Assembly (NCBI GenBank): GCA_947589105.1 | Contig: CANQBL010000001.1 | Location: 71,146-103,145, forward strand | Length of the DNA: 32,000 nt | Direction of reading: 5' to 3' | DNA from: an uncultured Bacilli bacterium | GTDB lineage: Bacteria > Bacillota_I > Bacilli_A > RF39 > UBA660 | Part shown: positions 3,120-28,696 of the stretch, piece by piece | How the letters are laid out: every line of letters starts with the position of its first letter | Numbering within the stretch: position 1 is the stretch's first letter | The notes under the pieces: generated by a model | What the model was told of the DNA's origin: nothing | Databases searched by the model: none | Seen by the model: only the letters and a program-made list of their open reading frames with translations | Made by a program: the position numbers and the translations under genes

Positions 3120-3302
3120 TTATTTAATATAAATTTTTCTAACTTCTTTAATATTTTCGTTTTTATCTTTGCATCCTTTACAAGTAGTATTGCAAGATCC
3201 AACACCACCACCACATGCACAACTACTACATACTGAGGCATAAATTTCTGTTAGATTGCTTAAGATTTTACTTTTTGCCTCATTTTTATCAAAAAATTTC
3301 AT
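3120..3302 (-). CDS. 60-aa six-cysteine peptide, candidate RiPP precursor
   Basis: Sequence MKFFDKNEAKSKILSNLTEIYASVCSSCACGGGVGSCNTTCKGCKDKNENIKEVRKIYIK. A strong SD AGGAGGTG (3315-3308) sits 5 nt before the ATG. The ATG (3302-3300) overlaps the TGA (3301-3299) of the radical-SAM gene in an ATGA junction. Confidence 0.65.
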   Translation of the reverse strand: MKFFDKNEAKSKILSNLTEIYASVCSSCACGGGVGSCNTTCKGCKDKNENIKEVRKIYIK

Positions 3303-4645: not shown

Positions 4646-5105
4646 AATCACCCAATTTTTCTTCCATAATGATTTTACTCATCTTAAAGCCCATTTTCTC
4701 ATAAAGTTTAATCGCCTTTAAGTTATCTTTACATACCTTTAATTCTAAGTAACTTAACTTTTTATCTTCTGCCCACTTTTTAAAGCCATCTATAAGAGAT
4801 TGAGCAATACCATTATTTCTAAATTCTTCTTCCACATACAAAGCATCTAATACCCCTACTTTTTTTAGTTTAGAATCGCCATTATTTTGTATGTATCCAT
4901 AAATATAGCCTACTAACTTTTTACTTTTTTTTGCAATTAAAAGACATACGTCTTCATTATCAAAAAAATTTTCATAAAGAGATTTTACAATACAGTTTTC
5001 ATTTATGTTCTCATCGTATTTTTTCTCATCAACAATTAATTTCGTTAATAAACCATTTACCGCTAAAGCTGATTTATAATCTGCCTTAATTATATCTATG
5101 TTCAT
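4629..5105 (-). CDS. GNAT-family N-acetyltransferase
   Basis: LYVEEEFRNNGIAQSLI matches the acetyl-CoA-binding motif (R/Q-x-x-G-x-G/A). The likely start is ATG 5105, with a GGAGG SD (5115-5111) 5 nt upstream; the track ORF extends to 5156. Confidence 0.75.
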   Translation of the reverse strand: MNIDIIKADYKSALAVNGLLTKLIVDEKKYDENINENCIVKSLYENFFDNEDVCLLIAKKSKKLVGYIYGYIQNNGDSKLKKVGVLDALYVEEEFRNNGIAQSLIDGFKKWAEDKKLSYLELKVCKDNLKAIKLYEKMGFKMSKIIMEEKLGDYDDVI

Positions 5106-15460: not shown

Positions 15461-16544
15461 TTAGTTTACCTTTCTTAGATAATTATATATAAATTCATCA
15501 ATATCACCGTCAAGTACCTTACTAACATTTGATGTTTCATAATTTGTTCTATGATCTTTTACCATTGAATAAGGATGCATTACATAACTTCTTATTTGCG
15601 ATCCAAACTCTATACCAGAATTATTTGCTTTTTGCTTACTTATTAATTCTTTTTGCTTTTTTTGCTCTATTTCATATAATTTACTTTTTAGTACCTTTAG
15701 CGCTGTTTCTTTATTTTTAATCTGACTTCTTCCATTTTGACATGTAACTACTATTCCTGTTTTTATATGAGTTATTCTAACTGCACTATCTGTAGTATTT
15801 ACACCCTGACCCCCCGGTCCACTACTTCTATATACATCTACTTTTATATCAGAATCTTTTAACTCTATATCTATATTATCATCAAATTCTGGAATAACAT
15901 CTACTGCTGCAAAAGAAGTATGTCTACGATTATTAGAATCAAAAGGTGATAATCTTACTAAGCGATGTACCCCTTTTTCACTTTTTAAATACCCATAAGC
16001 ATAATTTCCTTTTACTATACATGTAACACTTTTTATTCCAGCATCTTCACCTATTTGTTCATCTACAATTTCATATTTAAAATTCTTTTTATTAAAGTAT
16101 TTTAAATACATTCTAAGTAGCATCTGAGCCCAATCTTGACTTTCGGTCCCCCCTGCACCTGCATGAATCTCAAAAATGGCATCTTTAGAATCGTATTCTT
16201 TGCCTAAGAAAATTGTTACCTCATGATCTTTTATGGCTTTTATTGATTCGTTATAAATCAATTCACACTCTTCTAATTCTTTTTCGGTAAGTTTTGATAA
16301 ATCATACATATTTAGTAAATCTATATTTTCTTTTATTTTTAGAACAGGTTCTATAATTTCTTTTAAAAGATTCATTTGTTTTATAGTTTTTTCTGCCCTC
16401 TTAGTATCATTCCAAAATGAAGGACTATCATACTCTTTTTCTAATAACTTTATTTGACTAATTTTTTTATCTAAGTCAAAGAGCCCTCCACATATTATCT
16501 AATAACTCATTTAAAAGTTCTACATCTTTACGTGTTATTTCCAT
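15461..16544 (-). CDS. prfB: peptide chain release factor 2, requiring a programmed +1 frameshift
   Basis: Frame 0 from ATG 16544 reads MEITRKDVELLNELLDNMWRAL and then TGA (16478-16476). The +1 frame continues DLDKKISQIKLLEKEYDSPSFWND... into the track ORF 15461..16375, which carries SPF and GGQ (SGPGGQGVNTTDSAVR). Confidence 0.93.
16475..16489 (-). promoter_or_regulatory. prfB autoregulatory +1 frameshift site
   Basis: Minus strand reads GGAGGG CTC TTT GAC. This is an SD-like GGAGGG 3 nt upstream of the slippery CUU UGA C, the classic RF2 recoding signal. Confidence 0.9.
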
Positions 16545-16747: not shown

Positions 16748-16968
16748 TTATTTGTATTAAAACTATATTTTTAAATATAATTGTTCTTTTGCCTATCATA
16801 ATATTTTTATGACAAGAATTTAAAAATTTTATTTTAAAGTACTTATATTTGAAATATCCAAATAACTATTCTATTAAAACTGTTTTAATATGATTAAAAA
16901 ATTTAATTTTTACATATATAATTTTTAATTTCAAAATAAGAAAAAAAGAGGAAGATCTACAACACTAT

Positions 16969-17574
16969 TTAATTTACTTTTTTTATAAATAAAAAATTAA
17001 AAGATTCCTTTCTTCCATAAATTTCTCTAATTAAACTTTCATAGGAAAATGCAACGCCAATTTGATCATCACCTATTTTATTTGGATTAATAACATAAAA
17101 ATTATTGTTTTCATCTATATCACTAACTACTAGGTAATGACCATAATGGGAAAAAGTACCTTCATAGTTTTCATAATTATCTGCTGGTCCAACATGAATA
17201 ATAGCCATATTGCCATTTCTAATATTATCAATAATTCTCTTTTTTTGTTCTTCAGGATTATTAAAATTAATTTTTATTATCTCATATTCAATTTTTATTT
17301 TATCTTCTTTAATAAGTCTATCTAAGCAATATATTAAACCTTTAGAGCTTATACCTTTTGATTTTAAATAGATATTATCAAAATTTCCATTTTTATCAAC
17401 AATTATCTTTTTTACTATTTCAATGGGATTATACTTTATCCCATAATTTGAAAGTATAATAGCTATAGAAGTCGGTCCACAACCCCTATGCGGAATATCC
17501 CAATCTCCTAATTTATCCCTAAATTCATTTATAGTATAATCTAATTGCCTATACCTAATTCTATTTTGATTCAT
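16969..17574 (-). CDS. C39-like (papain-fold) cysteine peptidase domain protein, cytoplasmic
   Basis: 201 aa. HRGCGPTSIAIILSNYG matches the C39_2-type catalytic Cys motif, and GHYLVVSDID supplies the downstream His. There is no signal peptide or TM helix. An AGGAGA SD precedes the start. Confidence 0.5.
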   Translation of the reverse strand: MNQNRIRYRQLDYTINEFRDKLGDWDIPHRGCGPTSIAIILSNYGIKYNPIEIVKKIIVDKNGNFDNIYLKSKGISSKGLIYCLDRLIKEDKIKIEYEIIKINFNNPEEQKKRIIDNIRNGNMAIIHVGPADNYENYEGTFSHYGHYLVVSDIDENNNFYVINPNKIGDDQIGVAFSYESLIREIYGRKESFNFLFIKKVN

Positions 17575-17604
17575 TTTCTATCTCCTAAATAAAATTATGG
17601 AAAT

Positions 17605-17678
17605 ATGTTGAAAATATTTTTTTCGTAAAGTTTCATCATTTTCCAAAAAATGATGAAAAATGAGGAAATTTTCAACAT
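17605..17678. repeat. nested imperfect palindrome in a cassette spacer
   Basis: Outer 11-bp arms are ATGTTGAAAAT (17605-17615) and ATTTTCAACAT (17668-17678). Inner perfect 12-bp arms are TTTCATCATTTT (17631-17642) and AAAATGATGAAA (17647-17658), with a 4-nt loop. Word pair TGATGAA/TGAGGAA starts at 17651 and 17661. Confidence 0.8.
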
Positions 17679-17803
17679 TTGTTTACCAACTTTAATTTTT
17701 TTAATCTTATTCATATTTATGAACACAATACCTTATCAAAAATAAATATTATTTTGATAATCGTTTAAATCTTTCTTTTAATATTTCTCCTTCAGCCTAT
17801 ATT

Positions 17804-17813
17804 TTATAAAACC
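17804..17813 (-). repeat. TTATAAAACC core decamer, possibly a third and heavily degraded junction
   Basis: The same 10-mer follows the secA stop (22156-22165) and the SEC-C remnant at 20079-20088. Here the flanking tail-coding sequence is only weakly recognisable. Confidence 0.3.
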
Positions 17814-17920
17814 ATATAAATTATAAGCATTTCTAAAAGATTCTTAAATATGATTTTATATATTTTTTAATTATTGTTGAATATGTATCTTTATATAATT
17901 CTCGCATTTGTTATATAAAA

Positions 17921-18499
17921 TTACATATTTTCTTCTATGTCTTTTATAATATTATTTAAACTTTTAATTCTATCTTTAGAAGTATCATAATACTTAATTT
18001 TGTATTTAGGGCATTCTCTTTTTAGCATCTCGTTTGCAGAATACCAATCAATAGCATGTTTTTTTAAATATTTCTTAGAAAGACCAAAAGTCCAATCCTT
18101 TTCTGTATCGTGATTAATACAAAGTTCTACCATTTCATCAACATTTAGATTCCCTAATCCAAGACACACAACAATAGTCTCTTTTAAGTTTATCATCTTA
18201 CTAACTATTTTAGGATGTAATTGCCCACTTTCTAATATATATCCATAGTTTTTTTTATCTTTTTTAATAGAAGAGTCAAAAAATTCTAATAGAGTTCTTT
18301 GAAAAAACTCTCCGTGCTCAAACTCCTTTTGTTTTTCTACATTATTTCTGTAATATTCTTCTTTATTATTTGCTCTTATCATAGCCCATTTTAAAGAATC
18401 ACTGTGTATTAAGTTATAATTATTATATTTGTCTTTTAGCATTTCACTTAACGTTGTTTTTCCTGCTCTGCCTATTCCCATTATTAATATATTTTTCAT
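17921..18499 (-). CDS. P-loop NTPase / small-molecule or nucleotide kinase-like protein
   Basis: 192 aa with N-terminal Walker A GIGRAGKTT. Size and layout resemble the adenylate-kinase/AAA_18 fold. No closer assignment is possible. Confidence 0.5.
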   Translation of the reverse strand: MKNILIMGIGRAGKTTLSEMLKDKYNNYNLIHSDSLKWAMIRANNKEEYYRNNVEKQKEFEHGEFFQRTLLEFFDSSIKKDKKNYGYILESGQLHPKIVSKMINLKETIVVCLGLGNLNVDEMVELCINHDTEKDWTFGLSKKYLKKHAIDWYSANEMLKRECPKYKIKYYDTSKDRIKSLNNIIKDIEENM

Positions 18500-18597
18500 A
18501 ATTATCTTACCCTTCTATTTATTTTGACACAAATTTATAAAACTTTCAAAAATACAATTCCTATTATTACTTTCTTTAGTTTTTATCTCCAATTCTT

Positions 18598-19806
18598 TTA
18601 AACAGATTTATATAATCTAATACTTATTATTATTTCTATAATTGATAATACAAATAATATTACTACTACAGTAATCATTGGATTATTTAATAAAATAATT
18701 GTAAAACCTAAGCTCATTGTTGCTCTTACAATTTTTCTTGATAATTCCATTGTTGTCAATAAAGATTGTTGTCCTTCTTTTCCGACATTTCTTAACGCTA
18801 AATCTTGCATATATACTTTAAATGGATCTCTAATAAATAATATAATTATATACCCAAAACTCATAATACTAAATTTTAGTATTATAGAGTTTCTAATAAA
18901 ATATCCTAATATCATAAATATAATAGATGCACAAAGCAATGCCGGTAAAATAACCCCGACCTTTTCCTTATATTTATTGTGTATTTTATTAAAAGCTATA
19001 TTAGAAATAACTCTTACAATTCGAGAAATAGATAATATACCACCAATTACTAAAGCGGTTTTTTCTACGTTAAAGTTTAAAAGCAATTCCTGTTGTATAA
19101 ATAATTTTCCATTAAATTGGCCAGAATTTACAATAGGATAAAATAGACCATAAGAAATGATTAATAATATTATTAATCTATTATATCTTATCTTTTTACT
19201 TGTTTTAAGTTTTATTTCTTCTATTTTAATTTTGTCATAATTAGAAAAATCAATTATATAAAATGACAATATAAAACATATTAAACAAAAGGCAATACAA
19301 CACAACATTGGTAAATAATTATTAAAATTAAACATTATACTTACAATAAATGATATAATCATTGTTACTGTTGCATATATAGTATTAGATTTTGTTTTTA
19401 TTTTTATATATTCATTATTTCTATTTTGCAATTCAAGATTATTTTTTAATATAGCATTTGACATATTTTGAAATGTAAGTGCAATTTCATAAATAATCTT
19501 TCCCAAAGCAATAACTAGATAGTTTTGGCCAAATGTTAATAATATACTTGATATTAATAATGTTAAAGAACCTAACCTAACTGATTTTGTATTTCCTATT
19601 TTTTTAATTATTTTTAATAGTGGAACTTGCAATAATATACAAGCTATTAATGAAACAGTAGTCAAAGAAACTATCTGTGATGAATTAAAATTTTTTACAA
19701 CAGTTAAAAACAATGTATCTATTGCTACCCAAAATAATAAATCACTCGATAAACCTGTATATAGAGGAAATATTTTATTAAACTTCTTCATTCCATCTTG
19801 CTTCAT
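18598..19806 (-). CDS. MFS-type transporter
   Basis: 402 aa with about 12 predicted TM helices in two halves. It lies 98 nt upstream of the P-loop gene with no intervening hairpin, so the two are probably an operon. Confidence 0.7.
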   Translation of the reverse strand: MKQDGMKKFNKIFPLYTGLSSDLLFWVAIDTLFLTVVKNFNSSQIVSLTTVSLIACILLQVPLLKIIKKIGNTKSVRLGSLTLLISSILLTFGQNYLVIALGKIIYEIALTFQNMSNAILKNNLELQNRNNEYIKIKTKSNTIYATVTMIISFIVSIMFNFNNYLPMLCCIAFCLICFILSFYIIDFSNYDKIKIEEIKLKTSKKIRYNRLIILLIISYGLFYPIVNSGQFNGKLFIQQELLLNFNVEKTALVIGGILSISRIVRVISNIAFNKIHNKYKEKVGVILPALLCASIIFMILGYFIRNSIILKFSIMSFGYIIILFIRDPFKVYMQDLALRNVGKEGQQSLLTTMELSRKIVRATMSLGFTIILLNNPMITVVVILFVLSIIEIIISIRLYKSV

Positions 19807-19967
19807 TTATTTTTATCTTCCTTACTTTTTTTCTTATTTTTTTAAATTCATTGCTTTATCTATTATTACCCTTCTTGTTCTTTATTTTTTTAGCATTGTT
19901 TATAATTTTAATTGCTTTAATTGTATCTTCAAATGTTATTTCTTGAAAATATAGTTAATGGAACATC

Positions 19968-20003
19968 AGTATGTATAGTATTATAGGTATTATCCGTATT
20001 ATC
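19968..20003 (-). repeat. degenerate 9-bp tandem repeat block (GATAATACS / TATAATACT type)
   Basis: Minus strand reads GATAATACGGATAATACCTATAATACTATACATACT. It is related to the ATAAATACY blocks at 20147-20183, 20954-20996 and 21022-21050. Confidence 0.6.
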
Positions 20004-20010
20004 TTTATTT

Positions 20011-20061
20011 CCAAAATGAGGAAAAAAGAGGAAAAATTTAGACTTTTATGTCCCCTTTTTT
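20011..20061. repeat. phased A-tract word repeat and imperfect palindrome in a cassette spacer
   Basis: TGAGGAAAAA (20017) and AGAGGAAAAA (20027) are 10 bp apart. AAAAAAGAGGAAAAA faces TTTTATGTCCCCTTTTTT as an imperfect inverted repeat. TTCCAAAATGAGGAAA resembles 17641-17667. Confidence 0.6.
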
Positions 20062-20089
20062 TAGAATTTGCAATCTCTTATAAAACCTG

Positions 20090-20199
20090 CTATTTACCAT
20101 AGCAATTTTTATACTTTTTACCACTGACACAAGTTGAGCCTACTCCAGTATTTATAGTATTTATGGTATTTGTATTATTATTGTTACTATAAATATTTT
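20090..20199 (-). repeat. junction module copy b: decayed SEC-C tail copy preceded by a 9-bp tandem block and AAAATATTTATAGTAA
   Basis: Minus strand translates ENIYSNNNNTNTINTINTGVGSTCVSGKKYKNCYGK then TAG (20092-20090). Of the 42 nt ending at the stop, 35 are identical to the secA tail (22167-22208). No start codon. Confidence 0.8.
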
Positions 20200-20215
20200 C
20201 TCATCTGCAAACAAT

Positions 20216-20689
20216 TTACAAACATTGTTTGCATCCGTTTACTAATTTAATTATATCATCTATCATTATATCAATATCATTTTCTAGGCATATTTTTGCT
20301 TTTTCTAAAGAATTATAAGCATTGGTAAGTATAACTTTATCATATACTATGTTATATTTATTTAACCAATCAAATGTCATTTTATAAGGATCAGAATATT
20401 CGCCATTATCTCTACCACTTATAATATATATTTCATTTCCTTCTTCTTTTAATTTTCTTATATATTCTGGTGCATTTTCTAAAACATTAAGACTTTTAGC
20501 AATTCTTTCAATATTATCATGATAATATTGCTGTTCTTCATCTTTTGGCCAGTTGAACATATCTCTTATATAAACATTATTTTTGATTATACCATTATTT
20601 CCTAATTCTTTATCATGATTAATATAATCATTTAATAATACTTCATTAAAATTTGATAAAACATTATCAATATCAATACCTATACGCAT
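20216..20689 (-). CDS. HAD-superfamily 5'(3')-deoxyribonucleotidase-like protein, C-terminus apparently replaced
   Basis: HAD motif I is DIDNVL, followed by ISGR and motif IV MIDD. The ORF ends only 12 codons after motif IV, inside the TGCAAAC word repeat. An AGAGGTGAG SD precedes the start. Confidence 0.6.
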   Translation of the reverse strand: MRIGIDIDNVLSNFNEVLLNDYINHDKELGNNGIIKNNVYIRDMFNWPKDEEQQYYHDNIERIAKSLNVLENAPEYIRKLKEEGNEIYIISGRDNGEYSDPYKMTFDWLNKYNIVYDKVILTNAYNSLEKAKICLENDIDIMIDDIIKLVNGCKQCL

Positions 20690-20726
20690 ATCTCACCTCT
20701 TTAGAAATATTAAGATATTTAAATAA

Positions 20727-20814
20727 AAATGTTTGCATTAGAATATTCCTTAATTTATAAGGTATTATTCTCATTTTTGCAAACATTTAACTTTTTTGCA
20801 AACAAATTGCAAAC
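20727..20814. repeat. imperfect palindrome plus phased TGCAAAC word repeats in a cassette spacer
   Basis: Perfect 11-bp arms are AAATGTTTGCA (20727-20737) and TGCAAACATTT (20778-20788), with inner arms GAATATTCCTTA / TAAGGTATTATTC around TTATAA. TGCAAAC also starts at 20797 and 20808. Confidence 0.8.
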
Positions 20815-20896
20815 AAAATGCATTATTTTTCAACTTTTATAGTAATTCTTACTTCTTGTATTGTCTTTTGAATCCTTTATTTATAAGGGATAGATG

Positions 20897-21067
20897 TTAT
20901 TTACCACAACAGTTCTTGTATTTCTTACCACTTCCACAAGTTCCCCACTTTTGAGTATATATAGTATTTATAGTATTACCATTATTATCGGTATTTCAAG
21001 GAATTTTAGGTCTGGTAACAAATAGTATTTATGGTATTTATAGTATTATGTTTACTATAAATATTTT
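20897..21067 (-). repeat. junction module copy a: SEC-C tail copy preceded by two 9-bp tandem blocks and AAAATATTTATAGTAA
   Basis: Minus strand translates NTDNNGNTINTIYTQKWGTCGSGKKYKNCCGK then TAA (20899-20897). Of the last 42 nt, 33 are identical to the secA tail, and all 9 differences fall at third codon positions. No start codon; a frame break separates the two tandem blocks. Confidence 0.85.
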
Positions 21068-21200
21068 ATAAAATGGGAACAAATTGGGAACATTGTTATC
21101 ATTCGCCTATAAGTATATTTTAGCACAAATAATTAGTTAATAACAACTTTTTTATTTAGCTTATTACACAATTGTAGTTTTGTATTATAAAGTAGTTAAT

Positions 21201-21803
21201 TTAAAATTTTTTTTCGTATATAAATGCTAGTTCTTTATTAACTTTTCCTAATTTTCCATATTCTTTATTTTCAATAATAGTTTGATAAACCTTTTTGCAT
21301 CCAACGCTTTCATATACTCCATAACTACATGATTCATCAGTTAATATTTGAAGATTTTTCATATTGTCTTTTTTTGCTAAATCAAATACATCTAACAATA
21401 ATTTTTTGCCTATACCTCTTCCCCTATATTGTTTATCCAAAATCAACATTGATAATTCACCATCAAAATAATCTCTCATATTATCAGGAACATAATCATA
21501 ATTTTTTTCATATTCCTTTAAAGCATTAACATCTTTTATTTCTTTACTTTTATATAATAGCTTTTTAACAAAAGCATAAAATTTTTTCTTTAATATATGC
21601 TTTTTTGAGTTCCATTTTGAATATCCTGCAAACCCCAACAATTTATTATTTTCCTTATAATAAACAAATTGTTCTGATTCTTCTAATATTTCTAATAGAT
21701 AAATCCATGCACATAATCTTCGACTGGCACCACTTTCAACTTCGCCTAAATCCCACTCATTTTCTAATAATTCTACTGCTCTCTTCATATCATTAAGTTT
21801 CAT
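21201..21803 (-). CDS. GNAT-family N-acetyltransferase
   Basis: ILDKQYRGRGIGKKLLLDVFDLAKK matches the acetyl-CoA motif. The likely start is ATG 21803 (MKLNDMKRAVELL) after a GGTGA SD; the track start at 21815 is TTG. Confidence 0.75.
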   Translation of the reverse strand: MKLNDMKRAVELLENEWDLGEVESGASRRLCAWIYLLEILEESEQFVYYKENNKLLGFAGYSKWNSKKHILKKKFYAFVKKLLYKSKEIKDVNALKEYEKNYDYVPDNMRDYFDGELSMLILDKQYRGRGIGKKLLLDVFDLAKKDNMKNLQILTDESCSYGVYESVGCKKVYQTIIENKEYGKLGKVNKELAFIYEKKF

Positions 21804-21969
21804 TTTTATCACCAATTTTAATATTTACTTTTTTAATATTATATCATGAAAAAACAATGCTATAAATTTTTTTGTTAAATTTTATTGTCTTTTATAACTT
21901 TATTTCTTATTTATACTTAATAAATCAAAAAACTTTACGGTAACACAAAAATATACTTAATTACATAAA

Positions 21970-21990
21970 AAATCAGCACAATGCTGATTT
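21970..21990 (-). terminator. intrinsic terminator downstream of secA
   Basis: AAATCAGCA-CAA-TGCTGATTT, a 9-bp perfect stem, followed by a T-run on the minus strand. Confidence 0.65.
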
Positions 21991-22003
21991 ACAATGTTAT
22001 CAT

Positions 22004-22100
22004 AAAATGTTCCCATTGGGAAACCCTTGATTTTGCGGGGCTTTTTGGGCATTTTTGGGAACAAAATGAATTTTTTGTGCACATTTTGAGCACATTTTTA
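22004..22100. repeat. phased A/T-tract word repeats immediately 3' of secA
   Basis: Minus strand reads AAAATGTGCTC AAAATGTGCAC AAAAAATTCATTTTGTTCCC AAAAATGCCC AAAAAGCCCCGC AAAATCAAGGGTTTCCCAATGGGAAC. On the plus strand, T-tract starts at 22042, 22052, 22071, 22084 and 22095. GTTCCCA/TGGGAAC words start at 22009, 22017 and 22056. Confidence 0.75.
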
Positions 22101-22166
22101 TAGTTTTAGGGGTTTTCTTTATGATTTTTTCAAAACCAAATACCTCGTAAACCCTTATAAAACCTA

Positions 22167-24677
22167 CTACTTTCCACAACAATTTTTATACTTTTTCCCA
22201 CTTCCACATGGACATGGATCATTACGACCTATCTTTTTTTCTTTTTTAATAGTTCTATTTTTAGACACTTTTTCTAATCCAGTATTAGCATTTCCTTTAA
22301 CTTGTTTTACTTCAAGGTTTTGCCTTATTTCTGCCTTTAAAAGATACAAAGTTATATCTTTATTTATTTTATCAAGCATATTATCAAATAGTTCAAAGCC
22401 TTCTCTAATATAAGCCTGCAAAGGATCTTCATTTGCATACCCTCTTAAAGAAACACTTTCTCTTAAATGATCCATTGTATTTATATGCTCCATCCAATGA
22501 TTATCAATAACTCTAAGCGTTATTGCTTTTTCAAAATCATTTCTTATTTCTAAAGGAAGTTTATCTATTTTATTTTGATATTCTTTAATAGCTTTTTCCT
22601 CTATTAACTCAATTATTTCATTTGTTTCTTTATTTAAAATTTCAGATAATTTTAAATTTGAAGTCCTTAACAATTTTTCATTAACATATTCAACAATCTC
22701 ATTACATTCACTTTCTAATATTATACCATGTTCATTCATGTGATTATGTACAACACTAGAAATATGTTCCTTTATTGTATTTATAACCATTTCATGAATG
22801 TCATCATTATCCAATATTTCATTTCTTTTTGAATACATTATTTCACGATGTTTTCCCATTACATCATCATATTGAAGTAAATGTTTACGAGCATCAAAAT
22901 TATTACCTTCTACTCTTTTTTGGGCCGTTTCAACGGAATGAGTAATAGTTTTGCTCCTCATATTTCTTTGACTATCTAAACCAGCCATTTCTAAAATACT
23001 TTTAAATCTATCTGTTCCAAATCTAACCATTAAGTCATCTTCAAACGACACAAAAAATTGACTATATCCTGGATCCCCTTGTCGACCAGAACGACCTCTT
23101 AATTGGTTATCAATACGTCTTGATTCATGTCTTTCAGTTCCTATTACGCAAAGACCACCAAGTTCTTTAACTCCTTGTCCAAGTTTAATATCAGTACCAC
23201 GTCCTGCCATATTAGTTGCAATAGTAACAGCGCCTTTTTCTCCTGCATGAGCGATAATTTCAGCTTCTCTTGCATGGTTCTTGGCATTTAATGTTTCATG
23301 TTTAATATGAGCTTTTTTAAGTAAACTACTTATCAATTCGTTTGTTTCAATTGCTATAGTACCTACTAAAACGGGTTGTCCTTTTTCATGCCTTCTTTTT
23401 ATTTCTGCAACTATAGCTTTATATTTTTCTTCTTTTGTTGAGTAAATCAAATCAGCCTCATCTTGCCTAATTACCGGCTTATTAGTTGGAATTTCAATAA
23501 CAAACATATTATATATGCTTCTAAATTCTTCTTCTTCTGTTTTAGCTGTACCAGTCATACCAGATAATTTTTCATACATTCTAAAGTAATTTTGAAAAGT
23601 AATTGTAGCAAGAGTCTTTGTTTCTTCTTGTATCTCTACGTTCTCTTTAGCCTCTATAGCTTGATGTAATCCATCTGAAAAAGCTCTGCCAGGCATAAGC
23701 CTACCAGTAAATTGATCAACTATTATTATTTTACCTTCTTGTACAACATAATCAACATCATTATGCATAGTATAATTTGCCTTTAAAGCCTGATTTATGT
23801 GATGAACTAAAGCCGAATGTTCTATATCATAAAGATTATTAAGTCTAAAATAATGTTCTGCTTTTTCTGTTCCTTGATCAGTTAAGGTTATATCTCTTGT
23901 TTTTTCATCTATAATATAATCTTCATTTTCTTTTAAAGTTTTTACATATTTATCCGCATCTTTATAAAGATTTGCAGATTTCATTACTCCTCCAGAAATA
24001 ATTAAAGGGGTTCTTGCCTCATCTATCAATACCGAATCAACTTCATCTATTATTGCAAAATTAAGAGGTCTTTGTACTCTATCTTCTTTTCTTACTACCA
24101 TATTATCTCTTAAGTAATCAAATCCTAACTCATTATTGGTAGAATACAAAATATCAGCTTTATAAGCTTCTTGTTTTTCACTTGGAGACATCTCCCTTAA
24201 ATTAACCGCTACACTTAATCCTAAATAATTATAAATTTGTCCCATCCATTTAGCATCACGACTCGCTAAATATTCATTTACCGTTACTACATGAACTCCT
24301 TTACCTGTTAAAGCGTTTAAGTATGCTGGCATTACGCAAGTTAAAGTTTTACCTTCTCCAGTTTTCATTTCTGAAATATTACCAAAATGAATAGCTAAAG
24401 CACCCAAAACCTGAACATAAAACGGTTTTTCACCAATAACACGATATGCAGCTTCCCTTACTGTGGCAAAAGCATCTGGTATTATTTGATCTAAACTTTC
24501 TCCATCAGCTAATCGTTTTTTTAATTTTTCACTCATTGCCTGAAGAGTTTTATCAGACATTTTAGAATATTTATCTTCTAGTTCGAAAATTTCGTTTGCT
24601 ATTAATTTAAATTTTTCTAATTCCTTATATTCATGATCAAAAATCTTTTTTAACATTTTCAACATAATTTCAATCAT
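22167..24677 (-). CDS. secA: preprotein translocase ATPase SecA
   Basis: 836-aa ORF with the DEAD-like motor (MKTGEGKT, DEVDSVLIDEARTPLIIS) and a C-terminal SEC-C zinc motif CPCGSGKKYKNCCGK. The real start is probably ATG 24665 or 24656 (MLKKIFD), because the GGAG SD abuts the first ATG. Confidence 0.97.
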   Translation of the reverse strand: MIEIMLKMLKKIFDHEYKELEKFKLIANEIFELEDKYSKMSDKTLQAMSEKLKKRLADGESLDQIIPDAFATVREAAYRVIGEKPFYVQVLGALAIHFGNISEMKTGEGKTLTCVMPAYLNALTGKGVHVVTVNEYLASRDAKWMGQIYNYLGLSVAVNLREMSPSEKQEAYKADILYSTNNELGFDYLRDNMVVRKEDRVQRPLNFAIIDEVDSVLIDEARTPLIISGGVMKSANLYKDADKYVKTLKENEDYIIDEKTRDITLTDQGTEKAEHYFRLNNLYDIEHSALVHHINQALKANYTMHNDVDYVVQEGKIIIVDQFTGRLMPGRAFSDGLHQAIEAKENVEIQEETKTLATITFQNYFRMYEKLSGMTGTAKTEEEEFRSIYNMFVIEIPTNKPVIRQDEADLIYSTKEEKYKAIVAEIKRRHEKGQPVLVGTIAIETNELISSLLKKAHIKHETLNAKNHAREAEIIAHAGEKGAVTIATNMAGRGTDIKLGQGVKELGGLCVIGTERHESRRIDNQLRGRSGRQGDPGYSQFFVSFEDDLMVRFGTDRFKSILEMAGLDSQRNMRSKTITHSVETAQKRVEGNNFDARKHLLQYDDVMGKHREIMYSKRNEILDNDDIHEMVINTIKEHISSVVHNHMNEHGIILESECNEIVEYVNEKLLRTSNLKLSEILNKETNEIIELIEEKAIKEYQNKIDKLPLEIRNDFEKAITLRVIDNHWMEHINTMDHLRESVSLRGYANEDPLQAYIREGFELFDNMLDKINKDITLYLLKAEIRQNLEVKQVKGNANTGLEKVSKNRTIKKEKKIGRNDPCPCGSGKKYKNCCGK

Positions 24678-24752: not shown

Positions 24753-25283
24753 CTATATTGTTTCAATAATTCCATAATTTCCATCTTTTCTTAAATAAAG
24801 AACGCAAACCGAATTAGTATCTACATTCTTAAACACAAAAAACGAGTGTCCCAACATGTTCATTTGTAAAATTGCTTCCTCTTCGTCCATCGGTTTCATA
24901 TCTATTTTTTTTCTTTTAAGAATAGATGAATTATCTTCTTGAAAACTATCTTCTAAATCCATTTCAAAATTTTTAATAATATTTTTCTTTATTCTAGAAT
25001 TGATTTTTGTTTTATTTTTTCTGATTTGTCTTTCTAACTTATCAACCGTAAGATCAATTGCAGCATATAAATCATTGTGAGATTCTTCACTTCTTAATGT
25101 ATAATGCATTGCTGGTATAGTAATTTCAATCTTTTGGCTTTTCCCACGAACTTTTATTACAACATTTGCATCAAGACTATCTGAATTTTCGAAATACTTA
25201 TCTAATTTTCCAATTTTATCTTCTATATAAGATCTTATAGCAGAAGTAATTTCTACTTTTTCACCATGAATATTATATCTCAT
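24753..25283 (-). CDS. hpf: ribosome hibernation-promoting factor, long form
   Basis: 176 aa. The N-terminal S30AE/YfiA fold begins MRYNIHGEKVEITSAIRSYIEDKIGKLDKYF. The C-terminal dimerisation domain reads KPMDEEEAILQMNMLGHSFFVF. It occupies the conserved position upstream of secA. Confidence 0.9.
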   Translation of the reverse strand: MRYNIHGEKVEITSAIRSYIEDKIGKLDKYFENSDSLDANVVIKVRGKSQKIEITIPAMHYTLRSEESHNDLYAAIDLTVDKLERQIRKNKTKINSRIKKNIIKNFEMDLEDSFQEDNSSILKRKKIDMKPMDEEEAILQMNMLGHSFFVFKNVDTNSVCVLYLRKDGNYGIIETI

Positions 25284-25871: not shown

Positions 25872-26483
25872 ATGAAAAAACGTTTTCTAAATTCAATTAG
25901 AAATTCTATTAAAAAGCAATACCCTAATTATTCAAAAGATAAAATTGATGAAATAATGTACGGTGTCGAAGGAATATACTTAATGATAACAAAAACTATA
26001 ATAATATTTTTATTAGCTTTTATATTAGGTATATTTAAAGAACTTTTATATTTACTTATTGCTTTTAATTTTATTAGGCTTTTTGCATTTGGTATGCATG
26101 CCAACAAAAGTATTATATGTCTTGTTTTTTCAACTTTATTATTTATAGGCGGTGCATTTTTATGTAAATATGTAACACTAAATAAATTAGTTTTATACAT
26201 ATTTTACTTATTAGCTTTTATAATTATTACTATTTTTTCTCCTGCAGATACGGTAAAAAGACCCCTAATAAATAAGAAAAAAAGAAATAAATTTAAATTT
26301 TTATCAATTATAACAACATTAATTTATTTTATATTAACTCTATTTATTAAAAACAACTTAATTATTAATAGTCTTATATTTGGTCTTATCATAGAATGCA
26401 TTTTAATATCACCTTTGACTTATAAAATTTTTAAAATGCCATATAAAAACTATGTTAATTATGGTTTAAACACTTTTAATTAA
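25872..26483 (+). CDS. agrB: AgrB-family autoinducing-peptide processing endopeptidase
   Basis: 203-aa polytopic membrane protein. FIRLFAFGMHANKSIIC has His and Cys spaced 7 residues apart, as in the S. aureus AgrB catalytic pair H77/C84. A basic loop KRPLINKKKRNK is also present. Confidence 0.85.
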   Translation: MKKRFLNSIRNSIKKQYPNYSKDKIDEIMYGVEGIYLMITKTIIIFLLAFILGIFKELLYLLIAFNFIRLFAFGMHANKSIICLVFSTLLFIGGAFLCKYVTLNKLVLYIFYLLAFIIITIFSPADTVKRPLINKKKRNKFKFLSIITTLIYFILTLFIKNNLIINSLIFGLIIECILISPLTYKIFKMPYKNYVNYGLNTFN

Positions 26484-26519
26484 GTGATTAAATAAATTTT
26501 AATAAGGAGGAATAATAAA

Positions 26520-26645
26520 ATGAAAGCAATGTTAATTTCTATTGTTTCAGCATTAGGAGCTTTAGTTGCAGCTTCTGCAACTAGCGGATGTGTTATAGTA
26601 TGGGTTGATGAACCAACAATGCCTAAAGCAATGTTAGAAAAGTAA
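26520..26645 (+). CDS. agrD: AgrD-type autoinducing-peptide precursor (41 aa; below the ORF-track size cut-off)
   Basis: An AAGGAGG SD (26504-26510) precedes the ATG at 26520. Translation is MKAMLISIVSALGALVAASATSGCVIVWVDEPTMPKAMLEK: an amphipathic leader, a single Cys, and the acidic DExxxPK tail typical of AgrD. It lies 36 nt after agrB. Confidence 0.8.
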   Translation: MKAMLISIVSALGALVAASATSGCVIVWVDEPTMPKAMLEK

Positions 26646-26672
26646 AAGAAAAAGCTTTTATTGCTTTTTCTT
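26646..26672. terminator. bidirectional terminator shared by agrBD and the convergent kinase gene
   Basis: AAGAAAAAGC-TTTTATT-GCTTTTTCTT (10-bp stem) with T-runs on both sides. It overlaps the last codons of the kinase ORF. Confidence 0.6.
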
Positions 26673-27962
26673 TTTTATTTGTATAATTAAATTTGTTATA
26701 AAATAATCGTTGTCCAACTTATTTTCTACGTTCAAGCATTCATTTTCATTTACTATGTCATTAACTAATCTCAGTCCATAACCATGTCCATTTCCTTTTG
26801 TTGAATGACCAGAACCTAATTTAGACATATCTATTTTTCCTTTATATGTATTTGAAATGCTAAAAATAACTTTAGAAGATTCTTTTATTGAAGAAATAGT
26901 AATTTTTTTATTTTTACTTTCTTTACTTGCATCAATTGCATTATCTAATAACACACCTAATATTTTAGTAATATTTTTATACATTATCGTATCTAAAGTC
27001 TTTAATTTTGTTTTTACTCCATATTCAACATTAATTTCATATTTGATATTTTCATCATCCATCATTGATAATTTATAATATAAAAGTCCTTTTATACCTC
27101 CATCAGGAAAATTATTAAGTTGGCTTATTAAATAACTACTATGTGTTTTTTTAGTATCATCTACGATTGAATCTAAATACTCAATTAGTTTAGGTGACTT
27201 CATTTGAGCATAACCACGAATAACCATCAACTGGTTTCTAAACTCATGATTTGCTTTTCCTTGATCCGTAATTATTTTTTCGTATTTAGTAACATAATTA
27301 AGCATCTGTTTATTTTGTTCATTTAACTTATCATATTTTGATTCATTTTTTATTATTACGGTTAATATTGCAACTATACCAATAATAAATAATATATTAA
27401 CATAATAATTTGATTTAAGTATTAATTCTAAACCATTTTTTGATACTATTAAATATACAACAAATATAAATATGTATAAATAATTTATTAATTTTGAATT
27501 TTTATCAAACATATTATTTATTTTATAAATAATCTTAATAAAAAAAGGAATATATATTAAACAAATAGATAATAGTGATATTAAAATATTTGCCAAAAGA
27601 TTATAAAGATTATTATTAACAATATCAACAGAATTAATTCCAAAAAGTACTAAAAATAAAGTTACTATTATTTCACTAATTGACATTATCATCTCTAAAT
27701 TGAAAGAATATAAAATTAATTTTTTATCCTTTATTTTTAAAAAGAAGTATATAATTAAAGAAGTTATTATTATAAATAAAATAAATCTAATTTGGTTTGG
27801 AATAAATAAAAAACATATCGAGCAATAAATACACATTGGAATTAGTAATTTTATTTTTTCTTTTAAAGCTTTAATTTGTATTTGTCTACAAATAATAATT
27901 GTCGCAGCCGTGCCCTGAAATAATGAAACTATTATACTTATAATTATTTTTTCTACACTCAT
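26658..27962 (-). CDS. AgrC/HPK10-type sensor histidine kinase
   Basis: 434 aa. The N-terminal sensor has about 6-7 TM helices. H-box HEFRNQLMVIRGY, N-box LLDNAIDA, G-box GHGYGL. The start overlaps the regulator stop (ATGA at 27962-27959). Confidence 0.85.
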   Translation of the reverse strand: MSVEKIIISIIVSLFQGTAATIIICRQIQIKALKEKIKLLIPMCIYCSICFLFIPNQIRFILFIIITSLIIYFFLKIKDKKLILYSFNLEMIMSISEIIVTLFLVLFGINSVDIVNNNLYNLLANILISLLSICLIYIPFFIKIIYKINNMFDKNSKLINYLYIFIFVVYLIVSKNGLELILKSNYYVNILFIIGIVAILTVIIKNESKYDKLNEQNKQMLNYVTKYEKIITDQGKANHEFRNQLMVIRGYAQMKSPKLIEYLDSIVDDTKKTHSSYLISQLNNFPDGGIKGLLYYKLSMMDDENIKYEINVEYGVKTKLKTLDTIMYKNITKILGVLLDNAIDASKESKNKKITISSIKESSKVIFSISNTYKGKIDMSKLGSGHSTKGNGHGYGLRLVNDIVNENECLNVENKLDNDYFITNLIIQIKKKKQ

Positions 27963-28669
27963 AAAATCTCCCTTAATTTCCTTTTATAATTTTTGGATAA
28001 ATAGTCTATACTTTTATCACAATTAAAATAAATTATACTATTTTTAAAATCAACACTTTCTATTTTATCAATATTAATATAACAAGCCCTATGTGTTTGA
28101 TGAAACCTAGAATCTAATTTTTTTATTATGTTTAATAAAGTGTCATTTACTGGATATTCATCTTCTTCGGTTACTATTGTTGTTTTATTACTTTCGCTAT
28201 CTTTATAAATATATAATATATTATCTAAATTTACGTGATGCAGTTCTTTATTACATCTAAAACTTAAAACTTTTTTTAATTCTATTTTGTTAATTACCAT
28301 TTTTAACGTATCAGATAATCTTTCTTCATAATTATCAAATTTTGAGATGAAATCAAATATTAAAAGTTTTTGTTTTAAAACATTAAGTTCTAATTCATCA
28401 TGAGAAGTTAATATGATTATTATACTATCCCAATCTACTTTTCTAATTTCTCTTGCTATTTCTATTCCGGTTTTGTTAGGTAACTCCAAATCCAAAATAT
28501 AAATTTTTATATCAAGAGGGGTGTTTATTATGTTTTTTAATTTAATGCTATATTTATCAAAAGAATGAATGTTATAGCTAAAATCATATGGCATAGCTAC
28601 TTTTTTAATAATAGCATTATTTAAATCAGTAACATATTTATTATCATCACAAAGTATAAAATTAATCAT
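27959..28669 (-). CDS. LytTR-family response regulator (AgrA-like)
   Basis: The receiver domain begins MINFILCDDN and is followed by a C-terminal LytTR domain (...FHQTHRACYINIDKIESVD). The likely start is ATG 28669 after a GGGTGA SD; the track start at 28681 is GTG. Confidence 0.88.
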   Translation of the reverse strand: MINFILCDDNKYVTDLNNAIIKKVAMPYDFSYNIHSFDKYSIKLKNIINTPLDIKIYILDLELPNKTGIEIAREIRKVDWDSIIIILTSHDELELNVLKQKLLIFDFISKFDNYEERLSDTLKMVINKIELKKVLSFRCNKELHHVNLDNILYIYKDSESNKTTIVTEEDEYPVNDTLLNIIKKLDSRFHQTHRACYINIDKIESVDFKNSIIYFNCDKSIDYLSKNYKRKLREIL

Positions 28670-28696
28670 ACTATCACCCACTTAATTATAACATAA

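What the first reader, a model, noticed from the sequence alone, without database searches (positions are those of the whole stretch)
17605..22100. Each cassette is bracketed by its own heptamer word, repeated at 10-11 bp phasing and forming long imperfect palindromes
Word positions are plus-strand starts.

- GNAT cassette: TGGGAAC at 21074 and 21085 on its 3' side. On its 5' side, GTTCCCA at 22009, TGGGAAAC at 22017 and TGGGAAC at 22056.
- HAD cassette: TGCAAAC at 20206, TACAAAC at 20217 and GTTTGCA at 20227 on the 3' side. On the 5' side, GTTTGCA at 20731 and TGCAAAC at 20778, 20797 and 20808.
- MFS plus kinase unit: TGAGGAA/AGAGGAA at 20017 and 20027 on the 5' side, and TGATGAA/TGAGGAA at 17651 and 17661 on the 3' side.

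The two 3'-side arms align base for base except for the words: AACAATGTTCCCAATTTGTTCCCA versus AACAATGTTTGTAAATTGTTTGCA. The scaffold is therefore conserved while the word co-varies with the cassette.

The 5'-side spacers fold as 60-75 bp imperfect palindromes. One is at 20727-20788 with 11-bp perfect outer arms. Another is at 17605-17678 with 11-bp outer and 12-bp inner arms. All are embedded in helically phased A/T tracts, which implies bent DNA.

Structure conserved while sequence varies, with GTT.../...AAC words, resembles integron attC sites or element-specific arm or iteron sites. I know of no such organisation described for a Firmicutes secA locus.
Basis: partly seen in the sequence, partly recalled or inferred. 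Interest (0 to 1): 0.7.

Follow-up and report, generated by a model that had tools for sequence, protein, structure and literature searches.

The report
Integrase arm sites flanking secA cassettes
The repeated seven-letter words are most likely docking sites for a mobile-element integrase that inserts small gene cassettes into the last codons of the essential secA gene; this is ordinary site-specific integration, but at a hot spot in uncultured human-gut bacteria for which I found no published description.

Summary
The words are real for two of the three units. All 4 TGGGAAC copies in the 32-kb window flank the GNAT gene, and 6 of 11 TGCAAAC copies flank the HAD gene. TGAGGAA is not enriched. 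Each cassette ends in a copy of the last ~45 nt of secA (SEC-C zinc-finger codons plus stop), at 22167-22211, 20897-20941 and 20090-20134. Related gut contigs carry 37 such cassettes in 24 arrays downstream of secA. An occupied/empty pair places the crossover at CCATGTGG inside the SEC-C codons. Each insert gives secA a new tail and pushes the old tail downstream. In every cassette the words lie 60-230 nt on either side of this core, mostly 11 bp apart, in a fixed order and orientation. ICE-like relatives encode, at the position of the HAD gene, a tyrosine integrase with an arm-DNA-binding domain, and the word tracks the integrase clade. The words are therefore best read as arm-type integrase sites of attL/attR. 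The window cassettes are integrase-less (CIME-like) derivatives stacked by accretion. Integron attC and iteron readings are not supported. The kind is known; the target, and the tiny cassettes shared between species, appear undescribed.

The parts
22167..24677 (-). secA, the target gene. Its last ~45 nt were probably donated by the most recent insert.
   Evidence: Pfam finds the SecA domains plus SEC-C at residues 818-836. The donation of a new 3' end is shown in a relative.
22167..22211 (-). Core CCATGTGG (22204-22211) plus SEC-C codons and stop: copy 1, the attL core of the GNAT cassette.
   Evidence: Repeat family D3, SEC-C motif scan, and the crossover mapped at the homologous position in L085 versus L086/L103.
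21995..22166 (-). P' arm of the GNAT cassette. It holds TGTGCTC/TGTGCAC as an 11-bp tandem (22073-22098), GTTCCCA (22056-22062) and the GTTTCCCA/TGGGAAC inverted pair (22009-22024).
   Evidence: The scaffold is the same as in the L001 and L081 P' arms.
21970..21990 (-). Terminator-like hairpin after the P' arm.
21201..21815 (-). GNAT acetyltransferase, the only cargo of cassette 1.
   Evidence: Pfam Acetyltransf_1. No homolog in the related loci.
20942..21101 (-). P arm of the GNAT cassette. It has a degenerate inverted word (TGATAACA), then GTTCCCA twice 11 bp apart (21085-21091 and 21074-21080), then 9-bp periodic arrays (21022-21047 and 20954-20977).
20897..20941 (-). SEC-C copy 2 (WGTCGSGKKYKNCCGK*). 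This is the junction between the P arm of the GNAT cassette and the P' arm of the HAD cassette.
   Evidence: (D3).
20690..20896 (-). P' arm of the HAD cassette. In order: hairpin CCCTTATAAATAAAGG (20874-20889); GTTTGCA three times (20808-20814, 20797-20803, 20778-20784); CCTTATAAATTAAGG; inverted TGCAAAC (20731-20737). The 62-nt palindrome at 20727-20788 lies here.
   Evidence: Colinear with the P' arms of integrase-bearing L101/L144/L113/L152/L126 (alignment A2).
20216..20689 (-). HAD/NT5C-like nucleotidase, the only cargo of cassette 2. It sits where relatives carry the integrase gene.
   Evidence: Pfam NT5C, alignment A2.
20135..20233 (-). P arm of the HAD cassette. In order: inverted TGCAAAC (20227-20233), GTTTGTA (20217-20223), GTTTGCA (20206-20212), then a 9-bp array (20147-20179). 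It overlaps the last codons of the HAD gene.
20090..20134 (-). SEC-C copy 3 (STCVSGKKYKNCYGK*). It is the most decayed copy and therefore probably the oldest displaced secA end.
   Evidence: It carries two non-conservative changes, including the loss of one Cys.
19960..20089 (-). Arm-like remnant. It has TTTCCTC twice (10-bp tandem, 20013-20036) followed by a 9-bp array (19968-20003), with no core after it.
   Evidence: The heptamer is not enriched.
16969..19806 (-). MFS transporter (18598-19806), P-loop kinase-like protein (17921-18499), 74-nt palindrome (17605-17678) and C39-like peptidase (16969-17574). These are variable genes whose status as a cassette is unresolved.
   Evidence: Pfam. 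No homologs in related secA loci. The MFS plus kinase-like gene pair occurs in another genomic context with no SEC-C copy in the fetched locus (L162). Palindrome z about -4.7.
16917..16953 (-). 37-nt repeat, 84% identical to 19997-20033. It is a possible distal boundary of the MFS-kinase-C39 block.
   Evidence: D9. Contig L175 starts at window position 16959. Its significance is uncertain.
15461..16544 (-). prfB with its frameshift site, the conserved downstream neighbour.
   Evidence: In the closest relatives prfB lies about 2.3 kb after secA.

Best explanation
The secA-prfB interval holds a tandem stack of integrated mobile units. They entered by site-specific recombination at a core (CCATGTGG) in the Pro-Cys-Gly codons of the SecA SEC-C zinc finger.

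Each incoming unit carries its own copy of the last ~12 secA codons, the stop codon and a hairpin. Integration therefore gives secA a new, functional tail and displaces the old tail to the far end of the unit. Repeated integration next to secA (accretion) produces the series of SEC-C copies.

The heptamer words lie in the two arms of each unit's attachment site:
- P' arm, 60-230 nt after the core: 2-3 direct copies, mostly 11 bp apart, then a CCTTATAAATAAGG palindrome, then 1-2 inverted copies.
- P arm: one inverted copy plus two direct copies, then about 85-150 nt of AT-rich DNA with 9-bp periodicity, then the next core.

The words are most likely arm-type binding sites for the N-terminal arm-binding domain of a heterobivalent tyrosine integrase of the Tn916/Tn1549 type. 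Different integrase clades read different words on a shared scaffold, which is why the word co-varies with the cassette.

The GNAT and HAD cassettes of the window have both arms and the core but no integrase. They are non-autonomous, CIME-like units that would depend on an integrase supplied by a related ICE.

Shown: the cores, the architecture, the crossover position in a relative, the integrase domains, the association between word and integrase clade, and the horizontal spread of integrase-less cassettes.

Inferred: that the integrase binds the words, and that the window's cassettes are still mobilizable.
For: (1) Three SEC-C copies bound the window cassettes.

(2) 24 related loci carry 2-5 copies, defining 37 cassettes of 0.7-9 kb that are almost all co-oriented with secA.

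(3) Occupied versus empty site: L085 has a 1348-bp insert that is absent from L086/L103, whose flanks are 95-98% identical to those of L085. The sequences switch at TCCATGTGG, and the old secA tail reappears at the distal end.

(4) SEC-C copies differ mostly at synonymous positions: 8001 versus 1104 codon differences in secA-attached copies, and 3574 versus 731 in displaced copies. This fits copies that serve as the real SecA tail.

(5) Words are confined to the arms. In L101 all 5 TGTTTGCA copies in 20.9 kb lie 62-151 nt after the secA stop. In L105 there are 5 in the P' arm, 3 in the P arm and none elsewhere.

(6) The same word occurs at least twice on both sides in 18 of 31 cassettes, against 11.6% of mismatched flank pairs.

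(7) Spacing between successive direct copies is 11 bp in 52 of 77 cases. Orientation patterns are consistent across arms.

(8) Intact integrases of 423-458 aa (including L113, L090, L097, L135 and L152) start 160-226 nt after the secA stop, just beyond the words. In L101 and L144 the longest ORF starts inside the arm, but the integrase alignment begins about 220 nt after the stop. L113, L101 and L090, the three scanned, have Arm-DNA-bind_4 (24-32 bits, cutoff 22.3), a SAM-like domain and a catalytic domain. For L113, the closest solved full-length integrase is Tn1549 Int.

(9) The window's HAD 5' flank is colinear with these P' arms, with the HAD gene in the integrase position. The P arms are colinear too.

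(10) The arm-domain sequence differs systematically between integrases of GTCCACA elements and those of GTTTGTA/GTTTGCA elements.

(11) A second, distant integrase lineage (L124/L141) occurs at the same site. In L141 it lies next to TTAGATAC words in the P' arm.

(12) The integrase-bearing element in L113 is ICE-like: ParA, ParB, a thioester adhesin, sortase, PcfM-like and TnpV.

(13) Integrase-less cassettes move between hosts. The NTPase cassette is 95.5% identical where the adjacent secA is 71% identical. The NUDIX cassette is 99.6% identical where secA is 79%.
Against: - No integrase is present in the 32-kb window.
- No integrase-bearing element with the GTTCCCA word was found.
- All 5 contigs from the window's own lineage carry the same array, so mobility of these particular cassettes is not shown.
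- Binding of the integrase to the words is inferred from position and covariation only. An excisionase or another accessory protein could read them instead.
- Several arrays have mismatched words on their two sides (13 of 31), which requires decay or recombination between elements.
- The third unit (MFS-kinase-C39) has no distal SEC-C copy, and its word is not enriched.
- The SEC-C copies were found with a motif pattern, which biases the synonymous/nonsynonymous count towards intact copies.
Confidence: 0.77

Rival explanations
1. The units are integrated elements as described, but the words are read by an accessory protein rather than by the integrase arm domain. Candidates are a recombination directionality factor (excisionase), an element repressor controlling the int/cargo promoter, or a host architectural protein.
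For: Phased direct repeats next to a core are also typical of excisionase sites (established knowledge of lambda Xis). In integrase-bearing elements the P' words lie upstream of the int start and could act as operators. A conserved CCTTATAAATAAGG palindrome and 9-bp arrays show that further protein sites are likely present.
Against: The words occur in both arms, including the 3' arm where there is no promoter to control. The word type tracks the integrase clade and the sequence of its arm-binding domain. No small excisionase-like or repressor gene is consistently present, and the 0.7-1.6 kb cassettes encode none.
Confidence: 0.12
2. The palindromes are integron-like attC sites that fold in single-stranded DNA and are recombined by an integron-type integrase, which would make this an integron in a Firmicute.
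For: Arrays of co-oriented, mostly single-gene cassettes without a recombinase. Two spacers form stable hairpins. The words contain GTT.../...AAC.
Against: The crossover maps to CCATGTGG in secA, not to the words. The words violate RYYYAAC/GTTRRRY. The hairpins fold equally on both strands, and their extended pairing is not conserved in homologous arms. The GNAT flanks do not fold better than shuffles. The associated integrases score 70 bits against a 265-bit cutoff for the integron-integrase model, and they carry an arm-binding domain that IntI lacks.
Confidence: 0.02
3. The words are iterons of a replication origin, or operators of cassette-specific transcription factors, with no link to recombination.
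For: Phased direct repeats plus an inverted copy upstream of a gene resemble iterons or operators.
Against: No initiator or regulator gene lies in or next to the cassettes. The words always sit at fixed distances on both sides of a duplicated recombination core. The same arms flank ICE-like elements that carry integrases.
Confidence: 0.05
4. The words are chance repeats in very AT-rich intergenic DNA.
For: TGAGGAA is at chance level in the window. Many weak repeats of 25-40 nt occur in this region.
Against: TGCAAAC exceeds all 100 shuffles, and every TGGGAAC copy is at the GNAT flanks. The pattern recurs in dozens of independent loci with about five times more matched than mismatched flank pairs.
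Confidence: 0.02

Closest known systems
Arm-type sites of heterobivalent tyrosine integrases (lambda attP P1/P2/P'1-3; Tn916/Tn1549 Int; mycobacteriophage L5)
   Same: A short core lies in the target. It is flanked on both sides by 2-3 copies of a different short word at about one helical turn. The integrase has a separate N-terminal arm-binding domain (Pfam Arm-DNA-bind_4; the best PDB match among full-length integrases is Tn1549 Int). The word is specific to the integrase clade.
   Different: Binding was not tested. At least nine word types share one scaffold and one chromosomal target. The window units have the arms but no integrase.
CIMEs and ICE/CIME accretion at the 3' end of fda in Streptococcus thermophilus (concept reviewed in PMC5704250)
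   Same: Units keep attL and attR but lack integration and transfer genes. They are stacked in tandem at the 3' end of a housekeeping gene that is also the target of ICEs (for the definition).
   Different: The units here are as small as 0.7-1.6 kb with one or two genes, and about 350 bp of that is att site. Up to four stand in a row. They are near-identical across hosts whose secA is only 71-79% identical. The target is secA, and each event replaces the SecA zinc-finger tail.
Tandem genomic islands at the ssrA gene of Dehalococcoides (PMC3146451, listed)
   Same: The paper's title and abstract describe site-specific mobilization of a genomic island integrated at one conserved single-copy gene, by a mechanism common in the genus. 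From my own knowledge, not read here, several such islands stand in tandem, separated by direct repeats of the ssrA 3' end.
   Different: The target and host are different. I did not read the paper beyond its abstract, so I do not know whether it describes arm words or mini-cassettes.
Integron gene-cassette arrays
   Same: Co-oriented, recombinase-less, mostly single-gene cassettes accumulate at one site, apparently with the newest next to the entry point.
   Different: The recombination sites, the crossover point and the integrase family all differ. Each cassette carries a two-armed lambda-type site instead of a folded attC.

Membership tests
attL/attR of an element integrated by a heterobivalent tyrosine integrase | Direct repeats of the target core flank each unit | tested here: met
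   SEC-C copies at 22167-22211, 20897-20941 and 20090-20134. The same holds in 24 related loci.
attL/attR of an element integrated by a heterobivalent tyrosine integrase | Occupied and empty sites differ exactly by the unit, with the switch at the core | tested here: met
   Met in a relative: L085 versus L086/L103, with the switch at TCCATGTGG. Not observed in the window's own lineage, where all 5 contigs are alike.
attL/attR of an element integrated by a heterobivalent tyrosine integrase | A tyrosine integrase with an arm-binding domain is encoded next to the att site | tested here: inconclusive
   Present in related elements with colinear arms. Absent from the 32-kb window.
attL/attR of an element integrated by a heterobivalent tyrosine integrase | Arm-type sites: repeated words distinct from the core, in both arms, specific to the integrase | tested here: met
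   Met at the sequence level. Physical binding cannot be tested with these tools.
CIME (cis-mobilizable element) | Retains attL and attR but has no integrase or transfer genes | tested here: met
   The GNAT and HAD cassettes each have both arms, the cores and one cargo gene.
CIME (cis-mobilizable element) | Mobilized through accretion with, or an integrase from, a related ICE | not testable with these tools
   Only indirect evidence: other integrase-less cassettes are 95-99.6% identical across divergent hosts, and ICE-like elements use the same site.
Integron cassette / attC | R''/R' boxes RYYYAAC ... GTTRRRY, with recombination at G/TT | tested here: not met
   TGGGAAC and TGCAAAC fail the R and Y positions (direct reading). 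The crossover is at CCATGTGG in secA.
Integron cassette / attC | Integron integrase (IntI) associated with the array | tested here: not met
   No integrase in the window. The one associated integrase scanned (L113) scores 70 bits against the 265-bit cutoff of TIGR02249, and the three scanned with Pfam carry an arm-binding domain.
Integron cassette / attC | Strand-specific folded site with a conserved structure | tested here: not met
   The hairpins fold equally on both strands. The GNAT flanks do not fold better than shuffles. Pairing outside the words is not conserved in homologous arms. No attC covariance model was available.
Iterons of a replication origin | Adjacent initiator (Rep) gene and an origin context | tested here: not met
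   Only GNAT, HAD, MFS, kinase-like and C39-like genes lie in the interval. The rest of the window is housekeeping.

The most novel reading that the evidence does not exclude
The 3' end of secA in these gut Bacilli may act as an integron-like gene-capture platform built on lambda-type chemistry. Single-gene cassettes, each with a complete two-armed attachment site and a spare SecA tail, would be excised, exchanged between species and re-inserted in trans by integrases of co-resident ICEs. Several orthogonal word/integrase specificities would share one entry site. This would be an active cassette economy, not a graveyard of decayed ICEs.
Probability: 0.25. Interest if true: 0.75.

Novelty: new member of a known kind. 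Interest (0 to 1): 0.5.

Why it matters
This explains a striking sequence pattern with a concrete, testable mechanism. It also exposes an integration hot spot in common but uncultured human-gut Bacilli for which I found no published description.

The hot spot has three unusual traits:
- Every insertion rewrites the zinc-finger tail and the terminator region of an essential gene.
- At least nine arm-word specificities and two integrase lineages share one core.
- About half of the units are tiny integrase-less cassettes, carrying house-cleaning enzymes, acetyltransferases or defence genes. Some are near-identical across hosts of different species.

The set of matched integrase arm domains and words on one scaffold would be a natural resource for studying how arm-site specificity evolves, and for building orthogonal integration tools.

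On the practical side, the repeats break metagenome assemblies at secA.

Tried and rejected
- An Rfam scan of the whole window found nothing.
- tblastn of element integrases against the window found nothing, and Pfam on the remaining window genes found no recombinase.
- I looked for homologs of the window's GNAT, HAD, MFS, kinase-like and C39-like proteins in the 80+ related secA loci. There were none, so the same cassettes could not be compared in other contexts.
- Exact look-ups of HAD, SecA, Hpf and PrfB found only contigs with the same array, or contigs cut at the repeats. No empty or alternative site exists for the window's own lineage. The GNAT look-up with my chosen start codon found nothing.
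- Homologs of the kinase-like protein were traced to test whether MFS plus kinase is a secA cassette elsewhere. They lie in unrelated contexts with no SEC-C copy in the fetched loci.
- PADLOC found no defence assignment for the window's cargo.
- Five literature searches found no paper naming secA as an attachment site (the hit read was unrelated). A sixth search, for the CIME concept, gave the comparison papers.
- I first considered that the SEC-C fragments might be small genes or read-through extensions, because HAD is in frame with copy 3. I dropped this because of the stop codons and because the frames differ in other cassettes.
- I considered MITE/transposon ends and Xer/dif modules. I dropped both because there are no terminal inverted repeats, target duplications or dif-like sites, and because the boundary maps to the secA core.

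Full report
**What is in the window**

All genes in the region lie on the minus strand. The order is hpf (24753-25283), secA (22167-24677), a GNAT acetyltransferase (21201-21815), a HAD/NT5C-like nucleotidase (20216-20689), an MFS transporter (18598-19806), a P-loop kinase-like protein (17921-18499), a C39-like peptidase (16969-17574), and then prfB with its frameshift site (15461-16544). The rest of the window is housekeeping and contains no recombinase. Rfam finds nothing.

**Check of the observation**

- TGGGAAC occurs 4 times in 32 kb, always in the GNAT flanks. 1.4 were expected.
- TGCAAAC occurs 11 times against 3.3 expected, with no shuffle reaching 11. Six copies flank HAD.
- TGAGGAA occurs 5 times against 4.0 expected, so the third word is not enriched.
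- TRF confirms 11-bp tandems at 20796-20822, 21070-21092 and 22073-22098, and 10-bp tandems at 20013-20036 and 17646-17668.
- The palindromes at 20727-20788 and 17605-17678 are far more stable than shuffles on both strands (z from -7.2 to -4.7). The GNAT flanks are not.

The repeat search shows three copies of the 3' end of secA (family D3). Translation shows that they encode the SEC-C zinc-finger tail:
- ...PCPCGSGKKYKNCCGK* in secA itself
- WGTCGSGKKYKNCCGK* at 20897-20941
- STCVSGKKYKNCYGK* at 20090-20134

In both cases the displaced copy is preceded by DNA with 9-bp periodicity (ATAAATACT), and the words lie beyond that. The true units therefore run from one SEC-C copy to the next. The words lie inside the units, near their ends.

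**The pattern is general**

A genome scan found a relative with 69% SecA identity, an uncultured Bacilli MAG from a human gut (L001), with the same layout. A metagenome scan with the SecA C-terminus returned 80 human-gut loci. Together, 24 of these loci carry 2-5 SEC-C copies, which define 37 cassettes of 0.7-9 kb. The genes are almost all co-oriented with secA. About half of the cassettes are 1.6 kb or smaller and carry one or two cargo genes with no integrase. Examples are an inosine/xanthosine NTPase, NUDIX, GNAT, CutA1 and Fic.

After nearly every SEC-C stop codon there is a short hairpin (CCCTTATAAATAAGG, or a GC-rich terminator that encloses it). Then come 2-3 direct copies of a word, and often 1-2 inverted copies. 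Before each displaced copy there are two direct copies, often preceded by an inverted copy. In the TGT-word families about 85-150 nt of 9-bp periodic DNA follows them.

The word types seen are TGTCCACA, TGTTTGTA, TGTTTGCA, TGTGCACA/TGTGCTCA (mixed with TGTTCCCA), TGTGTGCA, TGTCATCC, TTAGATAC, TTAGATAAG and GGAGCCA. Direct copies are 11 bp apart in 52 of 77 cases.

The same word is present at least twice on both sides of 18 of 31 distinct cassettes, against 11.6% of mismatched flank pairs. Within 20-kb loci the words are essentially confined to these arms.

**Where recombination happens**

L085 and L086/L103 are the same species, with flanks 95-98% identical. L085 has an extra 1348-bp cassette (CutA1 plus a YgjV-like gene, no integrase). 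The four-way alignment shows three things:
- secA is identical up to TCCATGTGG.
- In L085 it then continues with a different, synonymous version of the SEC-C codons and a different downstream sequence.
- The original tail and downstream sequence reappear after the cassette, again starting at CCATGT(A/G)G.

The crossover is therefore at or just before the Pro-Cys-Gly codons. The insert brings a replacement SecA tail, a stop codon and a hairpin.

In keeping with this, SEC-C copies differ mainly at synonymous positions, including AGT/TCN serine switches. This count has a caveat, because the copies were found with a protein motif. The SEC-C codon variant also travels with the downstream arm type across loci.

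In the window, copy 3 is the most decayed. It has lost a Cys, as expected for the oldest displaced tail.

**Who does it**

Many loci have a tyrosine integrase gene right after the P' arm. Intact genes of 423-458 aa are present in several of them, including L090, L097, L113, L114, L133, L135 and L152. In L101 and L144 the longest ORF (481 aa) begins inside the arm.
- L113, L101 and L090, the three scanned, have Arm-DNA-bind_4 above its Pfam cutoff, a SAM-like core-binding domain and the catalytic domain.
- For L113, the best solved full-length integrase among its PDB matches is Tn1549 Int.
- L113 scores far below the integron-integrase cutoff.
- The element in L113 continues with ParA, ParB, a thioester-domain adhesin, a sortase, a PcfM-like protein and TnpV. 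It therefore looks like an integrative conjugative element.
- A second, distant integrase lineage (L124, L141) sits on the opposite strand at the same site. In L141 it lies next to TTAGATAC words.

Integrases from GTTTGTA and GTTTGCA elements are 71-76% identical in the arm domain (V[YT]VQKRGxVYQYxF...GKRK[YF]). Those from GTCCACA elements are 45-56% identical to them there, and they carry different residues at the same positions (VSVRKRGKVYEYRFE...GTRKW).

**Link back to the window**

The HAD cassette's 5' flank aligns base-for-base in architecture with the P' arms of the integrase-bearing elements L101, L144, L113, L152 and L126. The shared order is core, SEC-C codons, hairpin, A-rich spacer, two words 11 bp apart, a third word, CCTTATAAATTAAGG, then an inverted word. 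The HAD start codon sits where the integrase gene starts in the relatives.

The pairing outside those elements is not conserved in the relatives. It is therefore an arrangement of binding sites in duplex DNA, not a conserved fold.

The 3' arms of GNAT and HAD align with the P arms of L128, L112, L127, L105, L001 and L156.

The GNAT arms mix TGTTCCCA with TGTGCTC/TGTGCAC. The L001 NTPase cassette has TGGGAACA as its inverted copy next to TGTGCACA. These two cassettes therefore belong to one word family.

**Mechanism proposed**

This is lambda-type integration by a heterobivalent integrase. The catalytic and core-binding domains act at CCATGTGG. The N-terminal domain binds the phased words in both arms and bridges them to the core, with the intervening AT-rich DNA bent. 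Repeated integration at the secA-proximal site stacks the units, so each junction carries the P arm of one unit and the P' arm of the next.

The window's GNAT and HAD units lack an integrase and would need one in trans, or would move in cis together with an ICE, as described for CIMEs (PMC5704250).

Mobility of integrase-less units is shown for others:
- The NTPase cassette is 95.5% identical between hosts whose adjacent secA is 71% identical.
- The NUDIX cassette is 99.6% identical where secA is 79% identical.

It is not shown for the window's own cassettes. They are identical in all five contigs available.

**The third unit**

After copy 3 comes an arm-like stretch, with TTTCCTC twice and then a 9-bp array, but no further core. 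There is no SEC-C copy after the kinase-like or C39 genes. Homologs of the kinase-like protein, in one locus (L162) paired with an MFS gene, sit in unrelated contexts with no SEC-C copy in the fetched loci.

A 37-nt repeat (16917-16953 versus 19997-20033, 84% identical) brackets MFS-kinase-C39, and one contig starts at 16959. The repeat is of low complexity, however, and comparable matches occur by chance in this DNA. This block is variable, since it is absent from relatives, but it is not shown to be a bounded cassette.

**Comparison and novelty**

The kind of system is known: att sites with arm-type sites, and tandem accretion of ICEs and CIMEs at the 3' end of a conserved gene. Site-specific islands at a single conserved gene are also known from the Dehalococcoides ssrA locus (PMC3146451).

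I found no paper naming secA as such a target. I am not aware of descriptions of arrays of 1-kb single-gene units with complete two-armed sites that are exchanged between species. I therefore file this as a new member of a known kind. An integron-like 'cassette economy' remains the more novel reading, and it is not excluded.

Noticed in passing
L105 11144-15600; L127 12149-18960; L104 11111-20592: Integrase N-terminal and C-terminal fragments lie 3.6-9 kb apart with cargo genes between them (for example an ABC transporter). Other integrases are split into two adjacent ORFs at the same position (L092, L118, L130). In L127 the two fragments overlap in residue range and come from different integrase clades, so some 'elements' are fusions of two.
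   Followed up: partly
window 20216-20134 (minus strand): The HAD reading frame continues in frame, through two stop codons, into the 9-bp periodic stretch (ENIYSNNNNTNTINTINT) and SEC-C copy 3. The last HAD codons (GCKQCL*) are encoded by the arm words themselves. I regard this as coincidence plus tight packing.
   Followed up: partly
P' arms, e.g. window 20874-20889 and ~20750-20765; L113 10898-10912 and ~11012-11028: A conserved palindrome CC(C)TTATAAA(T)AAGG occurs twice per P' arm: once right after the secA stop and once between the direct and inverted words. It is present in all word families, so it may be a site for a common factor or part of the secA terminator.
   Followed up: no
window 19968-20003, 20147-20179, 20954-20977, 21022-21047; P arms of L105, L112, L128, L156: Arrays with 9-bp periodicity (ATAAATACT and similar) fill the about 85-150 nt between the P-arm words and the core in the TGT-word families, whatever the word. 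The TTAGATAC families lack them.
   Followed up: no
L097 11480-11635: One displaced SEC-C copy is preceded by a further stretch of the SecA linker (TNDSKDKAKS...). This suggests an element that picked up extra secA sequence through imprecise excision.
   Followed up: no
L083, L125, L145, L150 (contig ends); L176 start = window 20170: Several metagenome contigs end within 7-30 nt after the secA stop, and L176 starts inside the 9-bp array just upstream of SEC-C copy 3. This looks like an assembly artefact of these repeats.
   Followed up: partly
window 17921-18499: The P-loop kinase-like protein has no Pfam family above cutoff. It belongs to a large, tightly conserved family (over 100 clusters at 66-93% identity) in gut Firmicutes, and in one locus examined (L162) its homolog follows an MFS transporter gene. 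Function unknown.
   Followed up: partly
window 3120-4651: A radical SAM/SPASM enzyme gene lies next to a 60-aa ORF, which may be a small RiPP-type maturation pair.
   Followed up: no
window 25872-28681: An agr-like quorum-sensing set lies just upstream of hpf-secA. It comprises AgrB (plus strand), a 41-aa ORF called in L161, a HATPase_c_5 histidine kinase and a LytTR response regulator.
   Followed up: no
L117 17106-18131; L124 7566-10079; L117 15770-16804: Some cassettes at the secA site carry defence-type cargo: a PvuRts1I/SRA methyl-directed restriction enzyme, a PbeA/type IV restriction-like helicase, and a Fic protein.
   Followed up: partly
L081 3540-3700: A P arm and a P' arm of the same word type (TGTGCACA) meet at one core. 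This is an attP-like junction inside the chromosome, and it implies two same-type units in tandem.
   Followed up: partly
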